From: an uncultured Candidatus Saccharibacteria bacterium
GTDB lineage: Bacteria > Patescibacteriota > Minisyncoccia > Phycocordibacterales > Phycocordibacteraceae
Assembly (NCBI GenBank): GCA_964415875.1
Contig: CAYQCB010000011.1
Coordinates: 1 to 24,000, forward strand
DNA: 24,000 nt
Direction: 5' to 3'
Shown here: in pieces, positions 2,992 through 17,170 of the stretch
Position numbering within the stretch: position 1 is the stretch's first letter
Layout: each line of letters begins with the position of its first letter
Position numbers and translations under genes: made by a program
The notes under the pieces: model-generated
The model's input: only the letters and a program-made list of their open reading frames with translations
Databases searched by the model: none
What the model was told of the DNA's origin: nothing

Positions 2992-3039
2992 CCATAAAAA
3001 TGAAAAACCGCGCTTTCGCGCGGTTTTTCATTTTTATGG
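2992..3039. terminator. Bidirectional intrinsic terminator shared by convergent nrdJ and rnpB
   Basis: A perfect 22-bp inverted repeat, ccataaaaatgaaaaaccgcgc / gcgcggtttttcatttttatgg, surrounds a tttc loop. The GC core is flanked by an A-run and a T-run, so a U-tract is available on both strands. Confidence 0.8.
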
Positions 3040-3399
3040 ACTTGGCCGATAAGCCGAATTCTGTCTGCCGAGCCGAAGCTCGGGAGGCGATCATTTATCT
3101 GGGACAGTAATTGCTTGCTGCCTCGAGCGGCACCTCAGTCACACGTCTTACGAAGCGTACTGATACGACCTTGCACGGGGGTAAGGATTTAGCCGTTTCA
3201 CCTCCCCGATTGCTCGGGGAACTCATCCGCATCTTTCGAAGCGGATGCTGGCGCGCTTTCGCACGCACAGCGTCTCTGCTCGCACCTCGCGCCTCACGGC
3301 GTGTGGGAATTGCCCACTACCTGACTGCCCACATGAGGCCCGTGTTCGGACTTTCCTCTCTCTTCACAAAGTGTCGAGAGTAATCGCCTGGCCAAGTCC
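3038..3399 (-). ncRNA. rnpB: RNase P RNA, bacterial type A
   Basis: The minus strand reads GGACUUGGCC...GAGAGGAAAGUCCGAACAC...ACAGAAUUCGGCUUAUCGGCCAAGUCC. Both universally conserved blocks are present (GAGGAAAGUCCG and ACAGAAnnCGGCUUA). The 5' GGACUUGGCC and 3' GGCCAAGUCC ends pair as P1. Confidence 0.9.
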
Positions 3400-9407: not shown

Positions 9408-9746
9408 ATGCGCGGGAAACAGCTTCAGCACGGGATTATCATTGGTGTAGAGGTTCTTGCGTCGGTGTGGCTTCTCTCGCTGATCTGGGGTTTGGTAGGG
9501 AAGGCGCATGTGGCAGTTACGCAAGCAGCAGACGCGCAGAGAGAGTACGCGGCGCTTGAAACTCGCAAGGTGGCTCTGACGGCTAGCATAGAGAGCTATC
9601 AAACGCCTGAGGGGCAGGATGCGGCCATACGCACTGCGTTTGGAGTTGCGCGTCCGGGCGAAGAGGTTATTGTGGTGGTGCCACCCACAACGACGGTTGC
9701 CACAGCAACTCCCTCTTTTTGGGAAAAACTGTGGAGTTGGTTCTAG
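9408..9746 (+). CDS. Small bitopic protein, septum-formation-initiator (FtsB/DivIC)-like
   Basis: One N-terminal TM segment is followed by a short coiled-coil-like segment (AQREYAALETRKVALTASIES) and then AIRTAFGVARPGEEVIVV. The assignment rests on architecture only. Confidence 0.45.
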   Translation: MRGKQLQHGIIIGVEVLASVWLLSLIWGLVGKAHVAVTQAADAQREYAALETRKVALTASIESYQTPEGQDAAIRTAFGVARPGEEVIVVVPPTTTVATATPSFWEKLWSWF

Positions 9747-9850: not shown

Positions 9851-9924
9851 GCGGATATGGTTTAGTGGTAGAACAGTTGCTTCCCAAGCAACGGGCGGGA
9901 GTTCGATTCTCCCTATCCGCACCA
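9851..9924 (+). tRNA. tRNA-Gly, anticodon CCC, with encoded CCA
   Basis: Manual cloverleaf: GCGGATA TG GTTT AGTGGTA GAAC A GTTGC TTCCCAA GCAAC GGGC GGGAG TTCGATT CTCCC TATCCGC A CCA. Confidence 0.9.
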
Positions 9925-11208: not shown

Positions 11209-11250
11209 CACAAAAGCGCCCGGGGCCTACAGGCCCCGGGCGCTTTTGTG
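11209..11250 (+). terminator. Intrinsic terminator after the glutaredoxin-like gene
   Basis: A perfect 19-bp stem, cacaaaagcgcccggggcc / ggccccgggcgcttttgtg, has the T-run inside and after the 3' arm. Confidence 0.8.
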
Positions 11251-11268: not shown

Positions 11269-11340
11269 GCCCTTGTAGTTCAATGGATAGAACAGAGGCT
11301 TCCTAAGCTTCCGATCTAGGTTCGACTCCTAGCTAGGGCA
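11269..11340 (+). tRNA. tRNA-Arg, anticodon CCU, no encoded CCA
   Basis: Manual cloverleaf: GCCCTTG TA GTTC AATGGATA GAAC A GAGGC TTCCTAA GCTTC CGAT CTAGG TTCGACT CCTAG CTAGGGC A. There is one U-U mismatch at acceptor pair 6-67. Confidence 0.85.
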
Positions 11341-11514
11341 CAAAAATCCCCACAGGGCTATGTGCCGACCAGTAAAAAAACAAAAACTGAGTTTAGAGGA
11401 GAGAGATTTTAGCTTCGTCCCCTGGATGCTTGCGCGCCCAGGCTCTGATGCTTTTCGCTCAAACAGTATTTAATTAATTCCACCCGTCGACCCATAGCCC
11501 TCTAGGGACTTGGT

Positions 11515-11565
11515 ACCTTTTCGTCCTTTTGGACTCATCAGCTCGAGCACACACTCGAGTAAGGC
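11515..11565 (-). ncRNA. Type III hammerhead ribozyme motif
   Basis: The minus-strand RNA reads GCCUUA/CUCGAG-UGUGUG-CUCGAG-CUGAUGA-GUCC-AAAA-GGAC-GAAA-AGGU. The full catalytic core is present, stems I and II are closed by loops, and stem III is open. Confidence 0.7.
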
Positions 11566-11603
11566 TAGGTTTTTTAGGGAAACCTACAAACCTGGGTGGG
11601 GAA

Positions 11604-11843
11604 TCATTGTCCCCACCACTCAGCAAACGGATCGAGCAGCGTCGGTGAGGCGTAGTGCACCGTCGGAGTGGCGACAGTCCTGCATTCATCGCGTAAGGCC
11701 TGCGCCACCAAAAACTCGAAGTGCGACACAAGCTCTCCCTGCTTTCTCAAGGCATATCGCGGAGCGGCGAGCGGCTCGAAAGTCACAATATTCGACACGC
11801 CATCATTTTCCATTTGGGCATTTCCCCATAGGGTGAGGGTCAT
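11604..11843 (-). CDS. Hypothetical protein, 79 aa (island ORF)
   Basis: MTLTLWGNAQMENDG...AEWWGQ. Its ATG overlaps the stop of the upstream 63-aa ORF (ATGA at 11840-11843). The longer 161-aa track version overlaps two better-supported ORFs, so I rejected it. Confidence 0.5.
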   Translation of the reverse strand: MTLTLWGNAQMENDGVSNIVTFEPLAAPRYALRKQGELVSHFEFLVAQALRDECRTVATPTVHYASPTLLDPFAEWWGQ

Positions 11844-12031
11844 TTTCCGTTGATAGCTCGCCCTAGGGCTACGAGAAGCCCTCCAATAGCACTGCGCATC
11901 AGGCGCACTGCTGCCAGGATTGGCCATCGGAAAACCGCAGCCGCTGCGTGGGGCCCACGAATCATCATGGCCGCTCCCACCAGCACCATCCAGAGAGCGG
12001 TCAGTGAGACGATAAGGTTTGAAAAGTCCAT
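11840..12031 (-). CDS. Small membrane protein, 63 aa with 2 predicted TM segments (island ORF)
   Basis: GAAAGGAG lies 7 nt upstream of the ATG. The sequence is hydrophobic (LIVSLTALWMVLVGAAMMI and AIGGLLVALG). Confidence 0.55.
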   Translation of the reverse strand: MDFSNLIVSLTALWMVLVGAAMMIRGPHAAAAVFRWPILAAVRLMRSAIGGLLVALGRAINGK

Positions 12032-12089
12032 GAAGACTCCTTTCTGTTTCGGGATGGCACCATTGCGACCCCCTTATGCCGCCCTGCAC

Positions 12090-12203
12090 CTATTGCAGGG
12101 CGGCATAAATTGGGGCGAGCAAGCTGCTCAGAAGCCAGTGATATTCGATGCCGAGCAGCACTGCTGCCGCGACGAGCGCAACTAGAAACAAAAAGCTATC
12201 CAC
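12090..12203 (-). CDS. Small hydrophobic peptide, 37 aa with a GTG start (island ORF; below the ORF-track size cutoff)
   Basis: Read by hand: AAGGAG-9 nt-GTG, then VDSFLFLVALVAAAVLLGIEYHWLLSSLLAPIYAALQ. The start is 4 nt after the stop of the 123-aa ORF. The last codons form the 5' arm of the 12074-12108 hairpin. Confidence 0.4.
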   Translation of the reverse strand: MDSFLFLVALVAAAVLLGIEYHWLLSSLLAPIYAALQ

Positions 12204-12207
12204 CAGC

Positions 12208-12579
12208 TTACTCTCCTTTCACCACCTCTCCCCACAGGAAGTCGGTGATCTTCCCAGCCAGTTCATCGGAGATCCCAATATCGACGAGGATCCCTTTTCC
12301 GACCTCGAGCGCCAGATCTTCCTCGCGGCTCCGCTTGCTGGTGACCTTTGCGGCCAGTTTCGGGTAGGCGGCCAAAAACCGTGCCTCCTTGGCGAAGTCA
12401 CGGCGATTTTTTGCGATGTCACGAAGACCATTCTTGAGACCATCGATGAAACCACCAAGGCTGTTCTCTGTGACCTCCACCAAAATGGAGATTTCCACGG
12501 AGGCGAGCTCCTTTTTTGTGCTTGCCTCTGACACCAACTGGGTCACAGCCTCAGTCCAGAGCTCGTTTGGAATAGCCAT
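12208..12579 (-). CDS. Hypothetical protein, 123 aa, predicted helical and acidic (island ORF)
   Basis: TAGGAG lies 10 nt upstream of the ATG. The composition is clean and coding-like. I recognise no family. Confidence 0.6.
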   Translation of the reverse strand: MAIPNELWTEAVTQLVSEASTKKELASVEISILVEVTENSLGGFIDGLKNGLRDIAKNRRDFAKEARFLAAYPKLAAKVTSKRSREEDLALEVGKGILVDIGISDELAGKITDFLWGEVVKGE

Positions 12580-12780
12580 GGCACGTTTCTCCTACCCCTG
12601 ATCCCCGGGCGCGGGTGCACCGTGTGGTGCAAAGGACACAGTAGGCGCGCGACTCATTTTATGAGTCGCGCGCCTATGAGTGCCCAGTACCATTCTCTAC
12701 CAACGCGCGAGTCTCGTGCGCTGGATAAAGCGGATGAACACCAGAACCAACTGAATGTTCACCCGAAGCTGCCAAACCAT

Positions 12781-12936
12781 ACAACGACACAGAGTGACAG
12801 AACTCTGAGCGAGGGCGGAGCTCATTCCGCGTGGGCCAGACGCTATCGCATTGGTTTCCTCCTTTGCGACGATTGTGTAGAAACTGCCGTGTCAGTTTCT
12901 ACGGAAAGAACAAGCCACCACACGGGGTGGGGGAGG
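12781..12936 (-). repeat. Copy A of the structured intergenic element (about 156 nt)
   Basis: It aligns with 13756-13935 in long identical blocks: acaacgacacagag, gacagaactctgagcgagggcgg, atcgcattggtttcctcctttgcga, and gtgtagaaactgccgtgtcagtttctacgg. It begins right after the stop codon of the 180-aa ORF. Confidence 0.85.
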
Positions 12937-13479
12937 CTAGACGGTCACCGGCCGCATCGGGTCGATGACCCCGGCCCCCTCGAGGGCCGTGATGAGGGCC
13001 CGGCCGAGCGCGGCGCGCTCAGCCTCCCCCTTCTGGTAGTTGGCGAGCCAGTCGACCGCTCTCGCGACCGACAGTTCGGAGGTCTCAAACGAGACCTCCG
13101 CCGCCTCCAGGGCGGAGGCGATCACCTCCGCCCTCCAGACGGATGCGCCCGGGAACGTCACCCGGGCGCGGTAACCACCGCCGGACGCGAGTCCGACGGC
13201 GATTTGCGTCGCCGATGAAGGGGTGGTCAACACGACCTCCCCCTGCTGCGTCGACTCCACCGTGGTGAAGTCGACGCAGTCCTGGGCGGAGACAAGTTCC
13301 GCCTCTAGCGTGCGGCAGTCGGAGGCGATAAACGCCCCCAACATGATGACAGCGAGCGCCTCGCGCTCCCCCAACGTCCCATTGAGGGACCCGAAGGGGG
13401 CGAATGCCCCCGCGAGGAACCTGACCGCCTCGACGGCGGTCAGGTTGGCCGACGAAATCTCAGTCACGATTTTGGCCAT
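12937..13479 (-). CDS. Hypothetical protein, 180 aa (island ORF)
   Basis: AAGGAGG lies 6 nt upstream of ATG 13479 (MAKIVTEISS). Codons are strongly GC3-biased. The upstream extension to 13557 lacks an RBS. Confidence 0.65.
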   Translation of the reverse strand: MAKIVTEISSANLTAVEAVRFLAGAFAPFGSLNGTLGEREALAVIMLGAFIASDCRTLEAELVSAQDCVDFTTVESTQQGEVVLTTPSSATQIAVGLASGGGYRARVTFPGASVWRAEVIASALEAAEVSFETSELSVARAVDWLANYQKGEAERAALGRALITALEGAGVIDPMRPVTV

Positions 13480-13729
13480 AATGGCCTCCTTTACTGGCCA
13501 TGTGCCCGGGGGCATACATACGGCCGATTGAACACTTGCTACGGGAATCCGCAGCAAGAAAGTCTGCGGGGAGCGTTACCTCCCCGATTGGTGCCGAGCG
13601 GAGTTGAATCACTCGGTCAATGAGCCCAGCGCCTTGCAGCGCGGGAAAGTCTGGGAATCGCACCTTGCGATCCCTTTCAAATTCTCCACGCGGGGTGAAG
13701 TGCTTGAAAGGGAAGGTCAACATAACCAT
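13460..13729 (-). CDS. Hypothetical protein, 89 aa (island ORF)
   Basis: GGAGGT lies 4 nt upstream of ATG 13729 (MVMLTFPFKHF). Its 3' end overlaps the next ORF by 20 nt in another frame. Confidence 0.5.
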   Translation of the reverse strand: MVMLTFPFKHFTPRGEFERDRKVRFPDFPALQGAGLIDRVIQLRSAPIGEVTLPADFLAADSRSKCSIGRMYAPGHMASKGGHYGQNRD

Positions 13730-13755
13730 GCTGACCTCCAAGCCGTCTAACCGAT

Positions 13756-13935
13756 ACAACGACACAGAGCGACAGAACTCTGAGCGAGGGCGGTGCTCAT
13801 CTCCGCACGGAGCAAGTACGGCCCAGGGGCCGTCACGTACATCGCATTGGTTTCCTCCTTTGCGATTGTTGTGTAGAAACTGCCGTGTCAGTTTCTACGG
13901 GTTAAAGAACAGCCCACCGCACGGGGTGGTTTCGG
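13756..13935 (-). repeat. Copy B of the structured intergenic element (about 180 nt)
   Basis: It has the same blocks as copy A plus about 20 extra nt that form their own hairpin (acggccc ct gggccgt). It begins right after the stop codon of the 198-aa ORF. Confidence 0.85.
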
Positions 13936-14532
13936 CTAGTCGACCCGTTTGATGCCGCTAAAGAACACGGCATCCAAGTCCTCGAATACCTCGTTAATTG
14001 CCAGTGCGGCGACGGGATTCGTTTCCGTCGCCGACTGGCCACGCATTACCGAGGCGAAGTTCCTCAGTCTTCCGAGCCGGAGCTCGTCGAGGCACCCCTG
14101 GAGGTAGGTTTGCCTCCCCCGGGGGTTCCCTTCGGCCGCCTTTTGGGCGGCACGAAAGGCCTCCTCGGAGGCCTTCACAAGGTGGTACTCGGGGTTCAGT
14201 CCGTAGGGCAGAGACCCGAAGGCCTCCATGTACAGCCGATGCGGAAAGCCCGCGAAGTCGCCCGTGAGGGCGTACTCTAGCACCACATCGATTGCGTCGG
14301 GGATCGAAACTCCCGCCGCCAAGAATTCACCCCGTACCATTGCGACAAATGCCGCAACGGTTGCCTCCCTTTGTGGGAGGTGCGCGATGTGCTGATCGCG
14401 CGCCTCCCTGTGCGCCATATCCTCGACGCGGTAAAAGCCCGCAGCGCGTGCCTTGGCCCGGGCCGCTTCCGCAGCGCGGCCGGTCAGAGCCTTGGCTCTG
14501 ACGACGATCGGGTCGTTCGAGAATCTCGCCAT
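13936..14532 (-). CDS. Hypothetical protein, 198 aa (island ORF)
   Basis: MARFSNDPIVVRAK... with GC3-rich codons. The start is uncertain because the RBS is weak (GGAAGG). ATG 14532 lies 8 nt after the stop of the possible 64-aa ORF. In-frame alternatives exist further upstream, as far as the track ORF start at 14661. Confidence 0.6.
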   Translation of the reverse strand: MARFSNDPIVVRAKALTGRAAEAARAKARAAGFYRVEDMAHREARDQHIAHLPQREATVAAFVAMVRGEFLAAGVSIPDAIDVVLEYALTGDFAGFPHRLYMEAFGSLPYGLNPEYHLVKASEEAFRAAQKAAEGNPRGRQTYLQGCLDELRLGRLRNFASVMRGQSATETNPVAALAINEVFEDLDAVFFSGIKRVD

Positions 14533-14539
14533 AATAACT

Positions 14540-14734
14540 TTACCTTCCATTCCAGGTAACATGCAGTACCGCGCATGTGCGGACGGCCACCCTTGTGACC
14601 TGGGAATCTTGCGATCCCTCGTACCGTACCGATTCGTCTTGTGGACACGGCGTGTCCACAAGTGGGGAATCAGTCCGGCAACGAGGAATAACAGTGCAGT
14701 CGCTCTTTTTGAGCAGTTGTTCTGCGTTACTCAT
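14540..14734 (-). CDS. Possible 64-aa ORF, or an untranslated structured leader
   Basis: MSNAEQLLKKSDC... has no convincing SD and contains the 11-bp perfect hairpin at 14638-14662. Its stop lies 8 nt before the next ATG. Confidence 0.25.
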   Translation of the reverse strand: MSNAEQLLKKSDCTVIPRCRTDSPLVDTPCPQDESVRYEGSQDSQVTRVAVRTCAVLHVTWNGR

Positions 14735-14836
14735 AGTTACCTATTCAGTTTTCAAGGTACCTTCTGCCTTCGCAGAGAGAAGTCGGAGGCGATGCAATAA
14801 TAGCTGCTCTCGCCAGCCGGCTTCTTCCAACGAAAA

Positions 14837-14870
14837 GGCGACCGATTTCTCCAGGGAGAAATCGGTCGCC
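14837..14870. terminator. Strong intrinsic terminator inside the island leader, bidirectional by sequence
   Basis: A perfect 15-bp stem, ggcgaccgatttctc / gagaaatcggtcgcc, has a 4-nt loop. It is flanked by aaaa on one side and tttt on the other. Confidence 0.75.
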
Positions 14871-14998
14871 TTTTCCCCAAATAGCGTAGCTATTTGGCGC
14901 CTGGGGCAGTGGGCCCCTGGCTTTGCGACACGACTTTCTCCTCTAAAAGAAAGTGTGTTTATTTACTGGGATGGAAGGTTCAACTAACTCGTACTGCT

Positions 14999-15026
14999 AG
15001 TATACATGAACCGTGAGATTTGTCAA
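14999..15026 (-). promoter_or_regulatory. Island promoter P1 (TTGACA-16 nt-TATACT)
   Basis: The minus strand reads acTTGACAaatctcacggttcatgTATACTag. The -35 is consensus, and the -10 matches the TATACT boxes seen upstream of backbone genes. Confidence 0.65.
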
Positions 15027-15077
15027 GTGCCTGGAGCTCTGCCTCTGCAACTGCCCGGAACTTGACTAACTGCAAAT

Positions 15078-15105
15078 AGTATACACGAAGGCGTATATTT
15101 GTCAA
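15078..15105 (-). promoter_or_regulatory. Island promoter P2 (TTGACA-16 nt-TATACT), a tandem copy 79 bp upstream of P1
   Basis: The minus strand reads acTTGACAaatatacgccttcgtgTATACTat. It shares ACTTGACAAAT and GTATACTA with P1. Confidence 0.6.
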
Positions 15106-15191
15106 GTATTTTCTATATCCACGCGTTTGCGCAAAAGCCGACTTTTTAAGGGTATACTGTCTGCATTATCCCCACTTAGCTTACCGACTTC

Positions 15192-15668
15192 ATGTTTAGA
15201 GACTCTGCCAATTTCATCAGCCGCTACTTCTACCGTCAACCAGCTGGCATGTTTTTCCTCAGGCTTGTTACGGGTTTGATTTTCATTATGCATGGTCTCA
15301 TGAAGCTGCAGTCGCCCGAGATGATGGCGGGTTTCTTTGGTACTCTTGGACTTCACCCCGCTCTTTTCTGGGTGTGGGCAATAGGACTGCTTGAAGTGGT
15401 GGGAGGCGCAGCGCTTATCCTAGGCGTTGCAGCGCGCGTCTTTGGCGGGCTGCTTGCCATAGAAATGATTGCGGCCATTTTCCTTACGGGTCTTGGCAGA
15501 GGGTTTGGTGCGCATGAGTTTGAACTCTTGCTGGCAGTTGCTGCACTTGCTATAGGGCTCTCAGGTAGCGGACGCTGGTCGCTCTACAATCACAGTTGTG
15601 TGCGATGCGGTGGAGTCTTTTGCAATGGCGACACCTGTGTCGTCGCTGTAAGCGAAGAAGTGGTGTAA
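15192..15668 (+). CDS. DoxX-family membrane protein
   Basis: FFLRLVTGLIFIMHGLMKL plus four TM segments is typical of DoxX. The C-terminus is Cys-rich (CVRCGGVFCNGDTC). A TATACT box lies at 15153-15158. Confidence 0.75.
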   Translation: MFRDSANFISRYFYRQPAGMFFLRLVTGLIFIMHGLMKLQSPEMMAGFFGTLGLHPALFWVWAIGLLEVVGGAALILGVAARVFGGLLAIEMIAAIFLTGLGRGFGAHEFELLLAVAALAIGLSGSGRWSLYNHSCVRCGGVFCNGDTCVVAVSEEVV

Positions 15669-15710
15669 CGCTCCTTGTGGAATTGAGCTGGTACACAGGC
15701 GGTAAAAAGT

Positions 15711-16004
15711 ATGGATCCTGAACTGAGACGCGCACTTAGCGATCTACACGCGCTCACCAAAGACAATCACCGCATGCTGCGAGCAATTCGTCGCGAGTAC
15801 TGGTTTGGGGTGGTAGGTCGCATCGTAATCTGGGTGCTGGTACTAGCGTTGCCACTGTTCTTGTACCAACAATACGTGGGGCCAATCGTCTCAAACTATC
15901 TCGCTGCAGTGGGCGCCAAGCCCTCAGGCCCTTTTGGATTCCCGACTTCCACTGATATTCAAAAGCTGCTAGACTCAATGAGAGTGGGCACCACGAGCCC
16001 ATAG
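15711..16004 (+). CDS. Hypothetical small membrane protein, 97 aa
   Basis: A single TM segment (VVGRIVIWVLVLALPLFLY) is present. I recognise no family. Confidence 0.5.
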   Translation: MDPELRRALSDLHALTKDNHRMLRAIRREYWFGVVGRIVIWVLVLALPLFLYQQYVGPIVSNYLAAVGAKPSGPFGFPTSTDIQKLLDSMRVGTTSP

Positions 16005-16006
16005 AC

Positions 16007-16079
16007 GCTTGGATAGCTCAGTTGGTAGAGCATTCCCCTGAAGAGGGAAGGGTCGTCGGTTCGAGCCCGACTCCAAGCA
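16007..16079 (+). tRNA. tRNA-Phe, anticodon GAA, no encoded CCA
   Basis: Manual cloverleaf: GCTTGGA TA GCTC AGTTGGTA GAGC A TTCCC CTGAAGA GGGAA GGGTC GTCGG TTCGAGC CCGAC TCCAAGC A. Confidence 0.92.
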
Positions 16080-16084
16080 CAGTC

Positions 16085-17170
16085 ATGGTACGAAAGCTCT
16101 TTGCCCTTCTCAGCCGATACGAGCGACACCTCTCTGCCGCTGCGATGGTGGGCGGCTTTGTGCTCGACAACCTTTACTTTGGTCGGATCGACGTGTGGCG
16201 TACGCAGATGCTGTTCGCCATCTACACTGGCGTGTGTGTGGTCTCAATGCTTGCCCTGCACGCCATAGAGACGCGCGCTGCGCGCGGCAAGGCACGCCCG
16301 CGATGGCGTCCGCTGCTCCCCATCGCCACACAATTTGCGCTCGGAGGGTTTTGGAGCGGTTTTGTGATTTTCTACGGACGCAGTGCCGTCTTTTCTGCGT
16401 CGTGGCCATTTATGTTGGTACTTCTCGCCATTTTTCTTGCGAATGAATACTTTTCGAAATATCACGAACGGCTTGTCTTTACGAGTATTTTGTTTTTCTT
16501 CGCATTGTATTCCTACGCAGTTTTCGCAGTGCCGATATACACCGGAAAGTTGGGAGCACTGTCATTTATAGAAAGCGGAGCCGTTGCGGTGGCAGCGTTT
16601 GCGCTCTTTGCGCTTCTGCTACGCCTCGTCGGGAAAGATCGCTTTAAGGCAGACTTGCGGCGCATACGCACGGGGGCAATTATTGTGTTGCTGGTATTCA
16701 ACATTTCATATTTTACGAATATTCTCCCGCCGCTGCCGCTTGCGGCAAAGGCTGCAGGTGTGTACCACGGCGTGTGGAGAGTGCCAGGAGCCTACTTGGC
16801 TTCTACGGAGGACCAGTCCTGGGAAGTGCGGTACCTGGGTCTTGCACCGACGCTACACGTGGTCTCTGGCGAATCGCTCTACGCGTATACGTCGGTTTTT
16901 GCACCGACAACACTGACCACGACGATCGTGCACCGCTGGCAGTGGTATGACCCTGTGGCAAAAAAATGGATCACAAAAGCCGCCGTGACGTACCCCATTG
17001 TGGGTGGGCGAGACGGCGGGTACAAAGGCTACTCCGCCGCGCTAGTGACGGTTGAGGGGTCGTGGAGAGTCGATGTGGAGACAGACGATGGCAGACTCAT
17101 TGCGCGGTTACCGTTTACTGTTGTGCAAAGCCAGCTCCCACCCGTGGAGACCACTATTACCCTTGAGTAG
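16085..17170 (+). CDS. Membrane protein with a multi-TM N-terminal half and a DUF2914-like C-terminal beta domain
   Basis: The track ORF start at 16022 lies inside tRNA-Phe, so ATG 16085 (MVRKLFALL) is used. About 6 TM segments are followed by IVHRWQWYDPVAKKW...GGYKGYS...WRVDVETDDGRLIARLPF. Confidence 0.6.
   Translation: MVRKLFALLSRYERHLSAAAMVGGFVLDNLYFGRIDVWRTQMLFAIYTGVCVVSMLALHAIETRAARGKARPRWRPLLPIATQFALGGFWSGFVIFYGRSAVFSASWPFMLVLLAIFLANEYFSKYHERLVFTSILFFFALYSYAVFAVPIYTGKLGALSFIESGAVAVAAFALFALLLRLVGKDRFKADLRRIRTGAIIVLLVFNISYFTNILPPLPLAAKAAGVYHGVWRVPGAYLASTEDQSWEVRYLGLAPTLHVVSGESLYAYTSVFAPTTLTTTIVHRWQWYDPVAKKWITKAAVTYPIVGGRDGGYKGYSAALVTVEGSWRVDVETDDGRLIARLPFTVVQSQLPPVETTITLE

What the first reader, a model, noticed from the sequence alone, without database searches (positions are those of the whole stretch)
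11341..15110. Recombinase-less island of unrecognisable small proteins inserted at tRNA-Arg(CCU)
The island begins at the base after tRNA-Arg. All 7-8 ORFs (37-198 aa) run on the minus strand, and I can assign none to a known family. At least two are tiny membrane peptides. There is no integrase, transposase, replication gene or structural phage gene. The codon style differs from the flanks: third positions are mostly G/C, as in gcc gtc gag ggg. The genes carry strong AGGAG(G) sites, while backbone genes mostly have none. Noncoding RNA-like structure takes up more than a quarter of the island. The combination of orphan proteins, a ribozyme, repeated structured RNAs and consensus promoters fits no described defence, toxin-antitoxin or prophage architecture that I know.
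Basis: partly seen in the sequence, partly recalled or inferred. Interest (0 to 1): 0.78.

Follow-up and report, generated by a model that had tools for sequence, protein, structure and literature searches.

The report
Ribozyme-tailed orphan-gene island in Kaiserbacteria
A 3.8-kb strain-specific insert beside a tRNA gene of an uncultivated ultra-small (CPR) bacterium carries orphan genes inside unusually hairpin-rich RNA and ends in a genuine self-cleaving hammerhead ribozyme; it is most likely a swappable accessory-gene cassette array of mobile-element origin, not a known defence system or prophage.

Summary
Window 11342 to about 15125 is a real insertion. All 80 related Ca. Kaiserbacteria/Paceibacterota genomes lack it, and 48 of 69 informative relatives have only tRNA-Arg at this site. 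Four relatives join tRNA-Arg directly to DoxX. The island has no recombinase. Its proteins match nothing in Pfam, PHROGs, NCBIfam, PADLOC or PDB sequences. Three cargo ORFs are singletons among billions of proteins, yet they show clean codon periodicity. The ribozyme is a type III hammerhead, supported by strong covariation in a 17-member family even though Rfam scores it below threshold. The island is exceptionally hairpin-dense (fold z about -6 against -0.5 outside), even inside ORFs. A variant island from another sample keeps the noncoding modules and the small-membrane-peptide module but carries a different orphan ORF. Two unrelated metagenomic loci share the hammerhead plus a CU-rich leader motif in front of SD-led ORFs. 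One of those ORFs is a DUF1874/AcrIII-1-family gene. Best reading (confidence about 0.45): a non-autonomous accessory, possibly anti-defence, cassette array of mobile-element origin in a flexible hotspot, with modules swapped by recombination and transcripts processed by the hammerhead. This is a new variant of hammerhead-flanked variable genes known from prophages. Protein functions remain unknown.

The parts
11269..11341 (+). tRNA-Arg(CCU). It is the landmark of the hotspot. The island transcription unit runs antisense towards it.
   Evidence: ARAGORN. Rfam tRNA 61.6 bits. Conserved in relatives.
11342..15125 (-). The island as a whole, about 3.8 kb. The right end is uncertain by about 30 nt.
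   Evidence: No DNA or protein similarity in 80 related genomes. Empty sites exist in relatives. Boundaries.
11342..11512 (-). Structured 3' domain downstream of the hammerhead. A 26-bp imperfect long helix (11344-11369 with 11486-11511) closes a GNRA-capped hairpin and an unpaired CU-rich motif. No ORF follows, so this looks like the leader of a truncated last cassette.
   Evidence: Inverted repeat I2. MFE fold, z -5.7. Conserved in L002 with wobble-to-Watson-Crick changes.
11393..11409 (-). CU-rich motif AAAUCUCUCUCCUCUA, which resembles an anti-Shine-Dalgarno sequence.
   Evidence: Identical in L002. The same 13-mer lies 89 nt 3' of the hammerhead in L097/L102, and a CUCUCUCC core lies 34-37 nt 3' of it in L085/L103. 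Background frequency is 1 per 54 kb.
11513..11568 (-). Type III hammerhead ribozyme. Predicted cleavage is 3' of A11560, between 11560 and 11559.
   Evidence: Core CUGAUGAG...CGAAA. The 17-member family has stem I covariation and H = A/C/U. Own covariance model scores 77.9 bits. Rfam scores 25.4 bits, below the gathering score.
11567..11593 (-). Hairpin directly 5' of the hammerhead, with loop UUCCCUAAAA. After cleavage it would cap the 3' end of the upstream mRNA.
   Evidence: Fold. A hairpin occupies the same position in L085, L097 and L103.
11604..11813 (-). 69-aa ORF of doubtful status. Both ends are conserved, but the middle 130 nt is only about 50% identical to L002, and L002 is frameshifted there.
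   Evidence: Alignment. L002 ORFs.
11840..12031 (-). 63-aa protein with two predicted TM segments and a strong SD. It is part of the conserved 3' module.
   Evidence: 100% identical in L002. TM prediction. SD.
12090..12203 (-). 37-aa single-TM peptide with a GTG start and SD AAAGGAGAG.
   Evidence: Compared with L002 there are 5 synonymous and 3 conservative replacement changes, which indicates coding constraint. TM prediction.
12074..12108 (-). 15-bp perfect hairpin spanning the stop codon of the 37-aa gene.
   Evidence: One compensatory double change relative to L002.
12208..12579 (-). 123-aa orphan protein. It appears dispensable, because L002 has an internal deletion there.
   Evidence: Codon periodicity p < 0.0005.
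12642..12676 (-). 16-bp perfect hairpin in the leader of the 123-aa gene.
   Evidence: The homologous L002 hairpin differs by three fully compensated double changes.
12695..12943 (-). Repeat module R1. It contains a terminator-like hairpin followed by a U-tract, a 10-bp hairpin, an SD and AUG held in a hairpin with a 2-4-codon mini-ORF, and a further hairpin.
   Evidence: Fold z -7.8. No Rfam match.
12937..13479 (-). Cargo ORF of 180 aa. GC3 is 0.88. It is a singleton and contains at least 4 perfect and about 9 RNA hairpins.
13480..13739 (-). Structured leader of the 180-aa gene. The '101-aa ORF' lies here and is probably non-coding. L002 shares 57 identical nt and the SD-proximal part.
   Evidence: No codon periodicity.
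13740..13942 (-). Repeat module R2, 996 nt from R1.
13936..14532 (-). Cargo ORF of 198 aa. GC3 is 0.76. It is a singleton in 1.84 billion representative proteins.
14533..14831 (-). Structured leader built from modular hairpins. It includes GUGGACAC-GCC-GUGUCCAC at 14638-14662, which reappears elsewhere in L002. The '64-aa ORF' lies here and is probably non-coding.
14832..14875 (-). 20-bp perfect hairpin followed by UUUU. It looks like a bidirectional intrinsic terminator and lies about 120-160 nt downstream of promoter P2.
14890..14931 (-). 13-codon leader ORF (VSQSQGPTAPGAK). Its SD, AGAGGAGAAAG, is sequestered in a hairpin.
   Evidence: Sequence. Fold of the leader, z -9.0.
14999..15026 (-). 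Promoter P2, TTGACA-16-TATACT.
   Evidence: Direct repeat D5.
15078..15105 (-). Promoter P1, TTGACA-16-TATACT.
15192..15668 (+). DoxX gene with its own TATACT promoter. It is a flank but is itself variable, being present in only 5 of the 80 relatives' loci.
   Evidence: Pfam..

Best explanation
The island is a non-autonomous accessory-gene cassette array of mobile-element (probably phage-like) origin. It sits in a flexible hotspot between tRNA-Arg and the next core gene of a Ca. Kaiserbacteria (CPR) chromosome.

How it is proposed to work:
1. Two tandem consensus promoters start transcription on the minus strand.
2. A short, highly structured leader follows, with a 13-codon ORF and a strong terminator. 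It either yields a small RNA or gates read-through (inferred).
3. Read-through RNA carries cassettes of the form [structured leader with a strong Shine-Dalgarno site - orphan ORF - R module]. The conserved non-coding modules are the points where unrelated ORFs are exchanged by homologous recombination. This is shown by the variant island L002, which has the same modules and a different ORF.
4. The array ends in a conserved module encoding two small membrane peptides.
5. A protective hairpin and a type III hammerhead follow. The hammerhead is predicted to cut the transcript at 11560/11559, so transcription converging on tRNA-Arg is separated from the mRNA (inferred).
6. The piece 3' of the ribozyme is the leader of a further cassette whose ORF is missing. 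It carries a conserved CU-rich motif.
7. The very high hairpin density, kept by compensatory changes, is a selected RNA-level property. It may serve stability or protection from RNases or RNA-guided targeting (inferred).

The proteins most likely act in phage-host or element-host conflict or at the envelope. Their biochemical functions are unknown.
For: Island status:
- The island is absent from 80 of 80 related loci.
- 48 of 69 informative loci have only the tRNA at this site. 21 of 69 carry other cargo.
- Four relatives join tRNA-Arg directly to DoxX.

Foreign signature:
- Tetranucleotide deviation reaches z 3.25. Cargo GC3 is 0.76-0.88, against 0.52-0.65 for the backbone.
- Island genes are SD-led, while host genes largely lack SD sites.

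Cassette exchange:
- L002 shares the 3' module (87-100% identity), the R module, leader pieces and the SD-proximal 5' UTR.
- L002 carries an unrelated 194-aa singleton ORF between them.

Hammerhead:
- The core is intact. Stem I has 6 of 7 pairs with double changes and 99% of cells are paired.
- The cleavage-site nucleotide H is never G.

Position of the hammerhead:
- In the metagenomic family it lies 50-220 nt after a same-strand stop codon.
- It is either convergent with the next gene or sits in front of the next SD-led ORF.

RNA structure:
- Island mean fold z is -5.9, against -0.5 outside.
- The value is about -1 in relatives with 65-74% GC, so this is not a GC effect.
- There are 3.7 perfect hairpins per kb, against 0.30 outside and 0.45 in 1.3 Mb of background.
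- L002 shows the same density. Four compensated double changes separate the two variants in two hairpins.

Coding status:
- Cargo ORFs have uniform codon periodicity (p < 0.0005). The modules have none.

Sister loci:
- L085/L103 are tandem [hairpin-hammerhead-repeated leader-SD-orphan ORF] units with swapped ORFs.
- L097/L102 is a GC-richer, hairpin-dense islet. Its hammerhead plus the same AUCUCUCUCCUCU motif precede a PF08960/DUF1874 gene (E 3e-14; phrog_5063, E 3e-21).
- DUF1874 is the AcrIII-1 family (10.1101/778746).

Precedent:
- Hammerheads flank changing genes in prophage regions, including the anti-restriction gene ardA (PMC3088659).
Against: - No phage, plasmid or transposon gene is present in the island or the window.
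- There is no similarity to 50,697 phage records, 72,556 plasmid records or IMG/VR. A mobile-element origin is therefore inferred from style only.
- No donor element is known.
- The island family is known from only two or three contigs.
- No promoter-like site lies downstream of the leader terminator, so expression of the cargo depends on unproven read-through.
- None of the window's own proteins matches an anti-defence family. The DUF1874 link comes from a sister locus that shares only about 70 nt of RNA motifs.
- The role of AcrIII-1 as an anti-CRISPR in native systems is itself debated (10.1101/2023.01.10.523387).
- The left junction with the tRNA has no independent assembly support.
Confidence: 0.45

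Rival explanations
1. It is a host-beneficial accessory operon with no mobile-element ancestry. It would encode envelope or symbiosis-related small proteins in a flexible genomic islet, exchanged between strains by natural transformation and homologous recombination in the conserved flanks. The hammerhead and hairpins would simply be the way this lineage stabilises and terminates mRNAs.
For: - In relatives the hotspot carries ordinary cargo: DoxX, HlyD/MFS efflux genes, lipoproteins and secreted proteins. These are often on the minus strand next to tRNA-Arg, as in L045.
- The promoters use the host-type -10 box TATACT.
- Two island products are small membrane peptides.
- Some family hammerheads lie between core genes, for example clpP-rpoB in L096/L098 and upstream of groES in L095.
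Against: - Island genes are SD-led while the host's are not.
- The cargo has a foreign composition.
- The same element end occurs at two different junctions, in the window and in L002. That argues for a discrete element and against exchange through the flanks.
- The hammerhead model finds no other copy in 1.2 Mb of Kaiserbacteria sequence.
Confidence: 0.2
2. It is a new anti-phage defence, abortive-infection or type I toxin-antitoxin-like module. The small membrane peptides (37 and 63 aa) would be toxic effectors. The structured RNAs would control their translation. These are the promoter-proximal small RNA and the ribozyme-released 3' RNA with its anti-SD-like CU motif.
For: - Small hydrophobic peptides with strong SD sites are present.
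- The peptide module is the most conserved part of the island.
- A highly structured small-RNA-like unit lies behind two strong promoters and ends at a terminator.
- The conserved CU-rich motif is complementary to the island's SD sequences.
- The location is a variable hotspot of the kind that often holds defence genes.
Against: - No PADLOC model matches.
- No antisense promoter or antisense RNA gene was detected opposite the peptides.
- The 14-nt complementarity between the 5' and 3' ends is at chance level for a 3.8-kb region. About one such match is expected (own estimate).
- In sister loci the same hammerhead-CU leader precedes unrelated ORFs, including a viral-type ring nuclease.
Confidence: 0.15
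3. It is a DNA-encoded or integrated relative of viroid-like or Obelisk-like RNA elements. Each unit of about 1 kb (conserved structured RNA plus one ORF of about 190 aa) would correspond to one RNA replicon. The hammerhead would be a relic of rolling-circle processing.
For: - The R1-R2 period is 996 nt.
- Each unit has one orphan ORF of 180-198 aa.
- The RNA is extremely structured, including inside the ORFs.
- The ribozyme is a type III hammerhead that Rfam scores below threshold, as reported for Obelisk variants (10.1101/2024.01.20.576352).
- Two otherwise unrelated cargo proteins share SGGGYR, conserved at the protein level and not the DNA level. This is faintly reminiscent of Oblin-1 domain-A, GYxDxG (paper).
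Against: - The sequence is chromosomal DNA, contiguous with host genes.
- Folding gives local hairpins with a median pair span of about 20 nt, not a genome-wide rod.
- Only one hammerhead is present in the window.
- No reverse transcriptase is present.
- No sequence search linked the cargo to any other protein.
- AF2 models were too poor to compare folds.
Confidence: 0.04
4. It is an assembly or binning artefact: a chimeric join of a foreign fragment into a Kaiserbacteria contig at the tRNA gene.
For: - The left junction (tRNA/island) has no independent support. Logan contigs with the exact glutaredoxin gene stop before the tRNA.
- The composition differs from the flanks.
- The Logan contig L001 begins exactly at 15025, inside the island's promoter region.
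Against: - L001, an independent assembly from another run, spans the right junction at 100% identity from 15025 to 16137.
- L002 places a variant of the island next to a spacer typical of the same tRNA-Arg/p97 locus in Kaiserbacteria.
- The promoters use the host-type -10 box.
Confidence: 0.04

Closest known systems
Hammerhead ribozymes flanking variable genes in bacterial prophage regions (Perreault et al. 2011, PMC3088659)
   Same: A self-cleaving hammerhead lies between or after short blocks of small genes whose identity changes between relatives. The presumed role is processing a long transcript into gene-length mRNAs. Cargo can be anti-defence: ardA in that paper, and a DUF1874/AcrIII-1-family gene in sister locus L097/L102 here.
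   Different: - No integrase or phage gene is nearby.
- The island has a single hammerhead, placed at its 3' end.
- The host is a CPR bacterium.
- The ribozyme comes with a conserved CU-rich downstream motif.
- The whole unit is extraordinarily hairpin-dense.
PeSL mobile regulatory cassettes in hyperplastic regions of T4-like phages (PMC2839356, PMC4122927)
   Same: Short conserved non-coding modules with a stem-loop separate small orphan genes. They serve as crossover points, so close relatives differ by whole-ORF replacements.
   Different: - PeSLs are terminator plus early-promoter units of about 50-100 nt in a phage genome.
- The R modules here are 170-250 nt and show no detectable promoter.
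- The R modules carry an SD with a mini-ORF held in a hairpin.
- The R modules lie in a bacterial chromosome.
tRNA-linked genomic islands, prophages and satellites
   Same: The island is adjacent to the 3' end of a tRNA gene, is strain-specific and has atypical composition.
   Different: - There is no integrase.
- There is no duplicated tRNA 3' segment (att).
- A variant inserts about 100 nt away from the tRNA.
- The site holds many unrelated cargos in relatives, so it behaves as a hotspot and not as an att site.
Obelisks and viroid-like RNAs with variant type III hammerheads (10.1101/2024.01.20.576352)
   Same: Units are about 1 kb with one orphan ORF of about 190 aa. The ORF RNA is strongly self-complementary. 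The hammerhead is type III and scores below the Rfam threshold.
   Different: - The element is DNA-encoded and chromosomal.
- It folds into local hairpins, not a rod.
- No Oblin homology was detected.
- It uses promoters and SD-led operon logic.
Synthetic ribozyme insulators such as RiboJ (hammerhead plus hairpin in a 5' UTR). This comparison rests on my own knowledge and was not checked in the library.
   Same: In sister loci L085, L103 and L097, a hammerhead followed by a structured leader sits directly in front of an SD-led ORF. Cleavage would give each cistron a defined 5' end independent of upstream context.
   Different: This would be a natural element. Its function is untested. In the window itself the ORF downstream of the ribozyme is missing.

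Membership tests
Hammerhead ribozyme (type III topology) | Catalytic core C3-U4-G5-A6-N7-G8-A9 ... G12-A13-A14 with the A15.1-U16.1 pair | tested here: met
   The sequence reads CUGAUGAG-UCC-AAAA-GGA-CGAAA, with U16.1 pairing to A15.1.
Hammerhead ribozyme (type III topology) | Three helices around the core, supported by covariation. Stems I and II are loop-closed and stem III is open. | tested here: met
   In stem I, 6 of 7 pairs have changes on both sides. In stem III, 1 pair covaries. 99% of cells are paired, against 37-46% for slid controls. Stem II invariance follows from the search pattern.
Hammerhead ribozyme (type III topology) | The cleavage-site nucleotide H17 is A, C or U, never G | tested here: met
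   A, C or U in all 17 distinct family members. It is A in the window.
Hammerhead ribozyme (type III topology) | Score at or above the Rfam gathering threshold | tested here: not met
   The best clan hit is Hammerhead_1 at 25.4 bits, against 34, in a permuted alignment.
Hammerhead ribozyme (type III topology) | Self-cleavage activity | not testable with these tools
   This needs in vitro transcription or end mapping.
Integrase-mediated tRNA-linked genomic island or prophage | Tyrosine or serine recombinase in or beside the element | tested here: not met
   No Pfam, PHROG or NCBIfam hit occurs in the island. The rest of the window encodes housekeeping genes.
Integrase-mediated tRNA-linked genomic island or prophage | Direct repeat of the tRNA 3' segment at the far end (attL/attR) | tested here: not met
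   No direct repeat links 11300-11400 with 15000-15200. L002 has the same element end at a different junction.
Integrase-mediated tRNA-linked genomic island or prophage | Presence/absence polymorphism with empty sites in relatives | tested here: met
   48 of 69 relatives have only tRNA-Arg at the site. Four relatives have tRNA-Arg directly followed by DoxX.
Integrase-mediated tRNA-linked genomic island or prophage | Phage structural, replication or packaging genes | tested here: not met
   No meaningful PHROG hit (a single 13.9-bit, E 0.08 match to an unknown-function family for the 37-aa peptide). No match to phage records or IMG/VR.
Integron cassette array / CALIN | attC sites (R'' RYYYAAC ... 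R' GTTRRRY imperfect palindrome) after each ORF | tested here: not met
   A regular-expression scan found no R''-R' pair on either strand. The R modules are three separate hairpins. No dedicated attC covariance model was run.
PeSL-type mobile regulatory cassettes | Conserved non-coding module between orphan ORFs that differ between close relatives | tested here: met
   R1, R2 and the L002 R module, plus shared leaders, flank three unrelated singleton ORFs.
PeSL-type mobile regulatory cassettes | The module contains a promoter as well as a terminator stem-loop | tested here: not met
   The only promoter-like sites in the island are P1 and P2. R has a terminator-like hairpin only.
Type I toxin-antitoxin | Small hydrophobic toxin peptide | tested here: met
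   The 37-aa peptide has 1 TM and the 63-aa protein has 2 TM.
Type I toxin-antitoxin | Antisense or divergent small-RNA antitoxin with its own promoter | tested here: inconclusive
   The consensus scan found no plus-strand promoter-like site. The host promoter repertoire is poorly known.
Known anti-phage defence systems (PADLOC-DB) | At least one protein matching a system model | tested here: not met
   The only hit is a 14-bit, E 0.011 partial match.
Obelisk / viroid-like RNA replicon | Genome-wide rod-like secondary structure | tested here: not met
   The MFE of the 1-kb unit has a median pair span of 19 nt. Only 21% of pairs span more than 150 nt.
Obelisk / viroid-like RNA replicon | Oblin-1 homologue | tested here: inconclusive
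   No homologue of any kind was found. No Oblin profile was available. AF2 models were too poor to use, with pLDDT 43-49.
Obelisk / viroid-like RNA replicon | Circular RNA without a DNA counterpart | not testable with these tools
   Only DNA assemblies were available, and here the sequence is chromosomal.
AcrIII-1 / DUF1874 ring nuclease (anti-defence cargo) | Match to PF08960 | tested here: not met
   No window protein matches. Only the sister-locus protein L102:939-1256 matches, at E 3e-14.

The most novel reading that the evidence does not exclude
The island, L002, L085/L103 and L097/L102 may sample a previously undescribed class of recombinase-less gene cassettes in uncultivated (CPR-type) bacteria. 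The unit would be [hammerhead - CU-rich structured leader - SD-led orphan ORF - hairpin]. Under this reading the RNA modules, not a protein, define the cassette.

The extreme hairpin density, maintained by compensatory changes even inside coding sequence, would be an adaptive 'structural cloak'. It would keep the transcripts stable and inaccessible to RNases or RNA-guided defences such as type III CRISPR. The cargo would form a fast-turnover anti-defence or conflict gene pool.

A more radical version is that the cassettes move through an RNA intermediate, by ribozyme cleavage, ligation and reverse transcription supplied in trans.
Probability: 0.2. Interest if true: 0.85.

Novelty: new variant of a known kind. 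Interest (0 to 1): 0.62.

Why it matters
CPR/Patescibacteria make up a large share of bacterial diversity, yet their mobile elements, regulatory RNAs and conflict systems are almost unknown.

This locus offers four concrete handles:
1. A hammerhead sub-family that current Rfam thresholds miss. It has a conserved companion CU-rich motif.
2. A clear natural case of whole-ORF swapping between conserved RNA modules.
3. Coding sequences under selection for dense RNA hairpins.
4. A set of true singleton proteins, placed where a sister locus carries a viral ring-nuclease-family gene. They are therefore candidates for new anti-defence or envelope-acting functions.

If the hammerhead-leader unit works as a natural 5'/3' insulator, it would also be a compact part for synthetic biology.

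Tried and rejected
Protein searches that found nothing useful:
- Pfam, PHROGs, NCBIfam and PADLOC on all island ORFs and on the L002, L085 and L103 ORFs gave nothing significant.
- Word-indexed searches of 5.8 billion proteins with the 198-aa, 180-aa and L002 194-aa ORFs returned only the queries themselves.
- Full HMMER of the 198-aa ORF against 1.84 billion representatives returned only itself.
- PDB sequence searches gave nothing below E 0.06.
- All-against-all BLASTP of the cargo ORFs found no paralogy except the 6-residue SGGGYR.

Structure prediction:
- AlphaFold2 single-sequence models reached only pLDDT 48.8 and 42.7. Fold searches were not run because matches would be meaningless.

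DNA searches:
- blastn of the island against phage and plasmid collections gave no match.
- IMG/VR scans with the R core, the hammerhead, the 63-aa ORF and the 123-aa ORF found nothing.

RNA family searches:
- Rfam in sensitive mode on the 3' domain and on R1 found only the sub-threshold hammerhead.
- The hammerhead covariance model on 1.2 Mb of relatives and on the whole window (filters off) found no second copy.

Exact-protein look-ups:
- These gave only L001, L002, L106 and L107. None bridges the tRNA/island junction.

Ideas considered and rejected:
- Integron: there are no attC sites.
- IS200/IS605-type or other transposon: there is no transposase and no terminal inverted repeats.
- Large ncRNA in place of the ORFs: rejected because of uniform codon periodicity.
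- A 5'-3' panhandle from the 14-nt complementarity 14934-14947 / 11392-11405: about one such match is expected by chance in 3.8 kb.
- GC content as the cause of the fold z-scores: relatives with 65-74% GC give z of about -1.

Full report
**Check of the observation**

ARAGORN and Rfam place tRNA-Arg(CCU) at 11269-11341 on the plus strand. From 11342 to about 15125 every credible ORF is on the minus strand.

I accept six ORFs: 198 aa (13936-14532), 180 aa (12937-13479), 123 aa (12208-12579), 37 aa (12090-12203), 63 aa (11840-12031) and, with doubt, 69 aa (11604-11813). They are built from hairpin modules that recur elsewhere, so I treat them as leaders.

None of the proteins matches Pfam, PHROGs, PADLOC, NCBIfam or any PDB chain. 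The 37-aa and 63-aa products have one and two predicted membrane segments. There is no recombinase, replication or virion gene in the island. The rest of the window encodes housekeeping functions:
- ribonucleotide reductase, MurJ, LepA and an FtsB-like protein;
- glutaredoxin, Hsp20 and PrsW;
- an aminoacyl-tRNA synthetase, TsaD, an exonuclease and a DHH protein.

Two tandem TTGACA-16-TATACT promoters face into the island. Four of the six island genes have a 5-6-nt match to AAGGAG/AGGAGG. Among 11 backbone genes there is one 4-nt match and one AGGAG placed very close to the start codon. Several backbone genes have a TATACT/TATAAT box only about 8-12 nt before the ATG, which suggests leaderless or short-leader mRNAs.

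GC3 is 0.88 and 0.76 in the two large ORFs, but 0.58-0.66 in the others, which is like the backbone at 0.52-0.65. Tetranucleotide deviation peaks at 12501-14500 with z 3.25.

**Host and locus**

A scan with the neighbouring glutaredoxin gene returned 80 loci, nearly all labelled Ca. Kaiserbacteria, Paceibacterota or Parcubacteria. The host is therefore a CPR bacterium.

Synteny is conserved: LepA, FtsB-like gene, tRNA-Gly, glutaredoxin, tRNA-Arg, a 97-aa gene, tRNA-Phe, a DUF2914 membrane protein. In 48 of 69 informative loci the gap between glutaredoxin and the 97-aa gene is 103-467 nt, which is just the tRNA. In the other 21 it holds 0.85-5 kb of unrelated cargo:
- DoxX with an HlyD/MFS efflux operon;
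- lipoproteins and secreted proteins;
- a recurrent 213-aa HTH protein.

DoxX occurs in only five of the 80 loci. In four of them (L025, L050, L059, L061) it follows tRNA-Arg directly.

No relative has DNA or protein similarity to the island. The region is therefore an island in a flexible hotspot, not a core block.

**Anatomy, 5' to 3' on the minus strand**

1. Promoters P1 (15105-15078) and P2 (15026-14999).
2. A leader of about 170 nt. It folds into four hairpins (MFE -84 kcal/mol, z -9.0). It contains a 13-codon ORF whose SD is buried in a hairpin. It ends in a 20-bp perfect hairpin followed by UUUU (14832-14875).
   - The scan finds no further promoter.
   - Either this is a separate small RNA, or expression of the cargo needs read-through. 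Which of the two applies is inferred, not shown.
3. A structured leader (z -5.8), then the 198-aa ORF.
4. Module R2, another structured leader (z -5.6), then the 180-aa ORF.
5. Module R1 with its downstream hairpins (z -7.8).
6. The 123-aa, 37-aa, 63-aa and 69-aa ORFs.
7. A hairpin, the hammerhead, and a 170-nt domain closed by a 26-bp helix. This domain ends 1-4 nt from the tRNA.

R1 and R2 lie 996 nt apart. Each module contains:
- a terminator-like hairpin with a U-tract;
- an invariant 10-bp hairpin;
- an SD and AUG held in a small hairpin, opening a 2-4-codon mini-ORF;
- a further hairpin.

Rfam recognises nothing in the R modules.

**The ribozyme**

The sequence gccuuA|CUCGAGU-GUGU-GCUCGAG-CUGAUGAG-UCC-AAAA-GGA-CGAAA-AGGU has the full hammerhead core. 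Stems I and II are loop-closed and stem III is open, which is the type III topology.

Rfam scores it at only 25.4 bits against a threshold of 34, in a permuted alignment to Hammerhead_1. I therefore scanned JGI metagenomes with the core plus stem II. That returned 23 loci and 17 distinct sequences including the window and L002.
- Stem I is fully paired in all of them, with 6 of 7 pairs changed on both sides.
- The fifth pair of stem III covaries.
- The nucleotide before the cleavage site is A, C or U, never G.
- 99% of cells pair, against 37-46% when partners are slid.

Stem II and part of stem III were fixed by the search pattern, so their invariance carries no information.

The ribozyme is genuine by sequence criteria, but activity is untested. 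A covariance model built from the family finds no second copy in the window or in 1.2 Mb of Kaiserbacteria loci.

In the metagenomic loci the ribozyme lies 50-220 nt after the stop codon of a same-strand gene. A hairpin usually sits just 5' of it. The next gene is either convergent or is an SD-led ORF downstream.

**Cassette exchange**

An exact-protein look-up found contig L002 (Logan, SRR8931195). It shares several parts with the window:
- the module from the end of the 123-aa gene to the island terminus, at 87% identity overall, with the 63-aa gene identical;
- an R module;
- 57 nt and 30 nt leader pieces at 100% identity;
- the SD-proximal 5' UTR of the 180-aa gene.

Between these shared parts L002 carries a completely different 194-aa ORF. 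The replacement runs from start codon to stop codon.

The three cargo ORFs are singletons. The word-indexed search of 5.8 billion proteins returned only the queries. Full HMMER of the 198-aa ORF against 1.84 billion representatives returned only itself.

They are nevertheless coding. GC3 > GC1 > GC2 holds in every 150-nt window (permutation p < 0.0005), whereas the modules show no periodicity. The 37-aa gene differs from its L002 copy by five synonymous and three conservative changes.

L002 ends with the same island terminus, but this is followed by a spacer that matches the tRNA-Arg/97-aa-gene spacer of relatives L043 and L075. The element therefore occupies the same hotspot through a different junction. 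No att-like repeat is present at either junction. That pattern points to a discrete element end but gives no mechanism for insertion.

**RNA structure**

This is the most unusual measurable property of the island.

In 300-nt windows of the minus strand, the 12 island windows have a mean fold z of -5.9. Values reach -8 to -10, including windows that lie wholly inside the 180-aa ORF. The 68 outside windows average -0.5 (sd 1.7). The only comparable outside values are RNase P RNA and the tRNA/terminator regions. Relatives with 65-74% GC give z of about -1 with a minimum of -3.4, so GC content is not the cause.

Perfect hairpins (stem of at least 8 bp, loop of 3-7 nt) number 14 in the island.

| Region | Perfect hairpins per kb |
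|---|---|
| Island (up to 10 in one 2-kb span) | 3.7 |
| Rest of the window | 0.30 |
| 1.3 Mb of fetched loci | 0.45 |
| L002 | 3.6 |

The unrelated 194-aa ORF of L002 folds with z -5.0.

Between the two variants, the hairpin at 12642-12676 differs by three fully compensated double changes. The hairpin at 12074-12108 differs by one. The structures are local, with a median pair span of about 20 nt, and not rod-like.

**Sister loci**

Three independent hammerhead loci share more than the ribozyme.

*L085/L103* are tandem units of [hairpin with the same UUCCCUAAAA-type loop - hammerhead - repeated leader - AAAGGAG - ATG - small orphan ORF]. Two of the L085 ORFs are multi-pass membrane proteins. 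L103 combines the same modules with different ORFs.

*L097/L102* (one locus seen on two contigs) is an islet of about 2.2 kb.
- Its GC is 0.51-0.58, against 0.37-0.45 in the host flanks.
- It is the most hairpin-dense stretch of everything fetched, with 15 hairpins per 2 kb.
- It encodes a 429-aa orphan, then a hairpin and the hammerhead.
- The 13-mer AUCUCUCUCCUCU follows, identical to the window's motif at 11393-11409.
- An SD-led 105-aa protein comes next. It matches PF08960 (STIV B116-like, DUF1874; E 3e-14) and phrog_5063 (E 3e-21).

Viral DUF1874 proteins are the AcrIII-1 ring nucleases reported to degrade cyclic tetra-adenylate (10.1101/778746). Their role in native systems has been questioned (10.1101/2023.01.10.523387).

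A CUCUCUCC core occurs 34-110 nt 3' of the hammerhead in all three families. The background is one per 54 kb. In the sister loci an ORF follows the motif. In the window and in L002 the island ends instead. I therefore read 11342-11512 as the leader of a cassette whose ORF has been lost.

**Most likely mechanism**

Shown:
- it is an island in a hotspot;
- it has its own promoters;
- it carries SD-led orphan genes that are really coding;
- its conserved modules flank swapped ORFs;
- it has a bona fide hammerhead motif with a conserved companion motif;
- it has a selected hairpin density.

Inferred:
- the array comes from a mobile-element gene pool, based on foreign composition, SD usage, the same style of islet in unrelated hosts, and the published prophage precedent PMC3088659;
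- the R and leader modules act as recombination points, analogous to the PeSLs of T4-like phages (PMC2839356, PMC4122927);
- the hammerhead cuts at 11560/11559, leaving the upstream mRNA capped by the 11567-11593 hairpin and preventing long antisense RNA over tRNA-Arg;
- in complete units the same cut gives the downstream cistron a defined 5'-OH leader;
- the hairpins stabilise or shield the RNA;
- the cargo acts in conflict with phages or defences, or at the envelope.

I put this reading at about 0.45.

**Rival explanations**

| Rival | Confidence | Main difficulty or evidence |
|---|---|---|
| Native accessory operon for envelope functions | 0.20 | Does not explain SD usage, composition or the two junctions |
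| New defence or type I toxin-like module built on the two membrane peptides and the CU-rich RNA | 0.15 | No PADLOC hit and no antisense promoter; the same RNA unit precedes unrelated genes elsewhere |
| DNA-borne relative of Obelisk-like RNAs | 0.04 | For: 1-kb units, about 190-aa orphan ORFs, structured ORF RNA, a variant type III hammerhead, and shared SGGGYR compared with GYxDxG. Against: local not rod-like folding, chromosomal DNA, one ribozyme only |
| Assembly chimera | 0.04 | The right junction is confirmed by the independent contig L001, and L002 shows locus context. The left junction remains unconfirmed |

**Comparison and novelty**

The closest described things are hammerhead-flanked variable genes in prophage regions and PeSL-mediated ORF shuffling. 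This locus works like both, but it is not a member of either in the strict sense. It has no phage context, and the R module has no promoter.

It also fails the defining tests for the following:
- integrase-type tRNA islands (no recombinase, no att);
- integrons (no attC);
- PADLOC defence systems;
- Obelisks.

I rate it a new variant of a known kind. The new elements are the CPR host, the recombinase-less setting in a hotspot, the hammerhead-plus-CU-motif unit that Rfam thresholds miss, and above all the hairpin density maintained inside coding sequence.

The functions of the proteins remain unknown. No donor element was found, and the family rests on very few contigs. These gaps keep both the confidence and the score moderate.

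Noticed in passing
window 3034-3399 (-): Bacterial RNase P RNA class A (Rfam 125.8 bits). It is immediately followed by a 22-bp perfect hairpin at 2992-3039. It lies outside the island and is not the 'ribozyme' of the finding.
   Followed up: partly
window, upstream of the backbone genes starting at 9408, 15192, 15711, 18520(-) and 20769(-): Backbone genes mostly lack Shine-Dalgarno sites. Several have a TATACT/TATAAT box only about 8-12 nt before the ATG, which suggests leaderless or very short-leader mRNAs in this Kaiserbacteria genome.
   Followed up: partly
L024:5125-5766, and homologues in L032, L041 and L070, next to tRNA-Arg: A recurrent 213-aa protein with an N-terminal HTH (weak HTH_38 / sigma-70 region 4 hits) occupies the same hotspot in four relatives. 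Its GC is 7-13 points below the host in L024 and L032. It may be a small mobile or homing-type gene.
   Followed up: partly
L102:840-2900 (same region as L097:10000-12768): A GC-richer islet that is extremely hairpin-dense (15 perfect hairpins per 2 kb). It has a 429-aa orphan ORF, a hammerhead, the CU-rich motif and a DUF1874/AcrIII-1-family gene. It lies in a host with about 40% GC, between a TrmB-like regulator gene and a 613-aa gene.
   Followed up: partly
L085:1-2058 (-) and L103: Tandem [hairpin-hammerhead-repeated leader-SD-ORF] cassettes with two hammerheads about 1.1 kb apart. In principle the interval could be released as a unit-length RNA. L103 recombines the same modules with other ORFs.
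   Followed up: partly
window 11650-11780 (-) against L002:1715-1850: The middle of the 69-aa ORF is only about 50% identical between the two island variants, although the surrounding sequence is 95-100% identical. L002 is frameshifted there. This could be a localised replacement or hypervariability of unknown cause.
   Followed up: no
window 13165-13182 (-) and L002:254-271: The two unrelated cargo proteins share the hexapeptide SGGGYR, encoded with four synonymous differences. About 0.002-0.004 such matches are expected by chance.
   Followed up: no
window 15025: The independent Logan contig L001 (SRR8931241) is 100% identical over 15025-16137. It starts exactly at the -35 edge of promoter P2. 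This suggests an assembly-graph branch, and so strain variation, inside the island's promoter region.
   Followed up: no
window 11209-11250: A 19-bp perfect hairpin with U-tracts on both strands lies between the glutaredoxin gene and tRNA-Arg, and looks like a bidirectional terminator. It produced spurious sub-threshold 'ar35' Rfam hits.
   Followed up: no
window 9851-9924, 11269-11341 and 16007-16080: None of the three tRNA genes encodes the 3' CCA. The 382-aa ORF listed from 16022 overlaps tRNA-Phe, so its real start must lie downstream of 16080.
   Followed up: no
window 12845-12853 and 13833-13847 (-); L002 about 845-856: Each R module carries a very strong SD (AAAGGAGGAAACCA) followed by a 2-4-codon mini-ORF: AUG CGA UAG, AUG CGA UGU ACG UGA, and AUG CUG CAC UGA. 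The AUG is paired in a small hairpin that shows one compensatory change. These could be start-stop or minigene-like elements of unknown role.
   Followed up: partly
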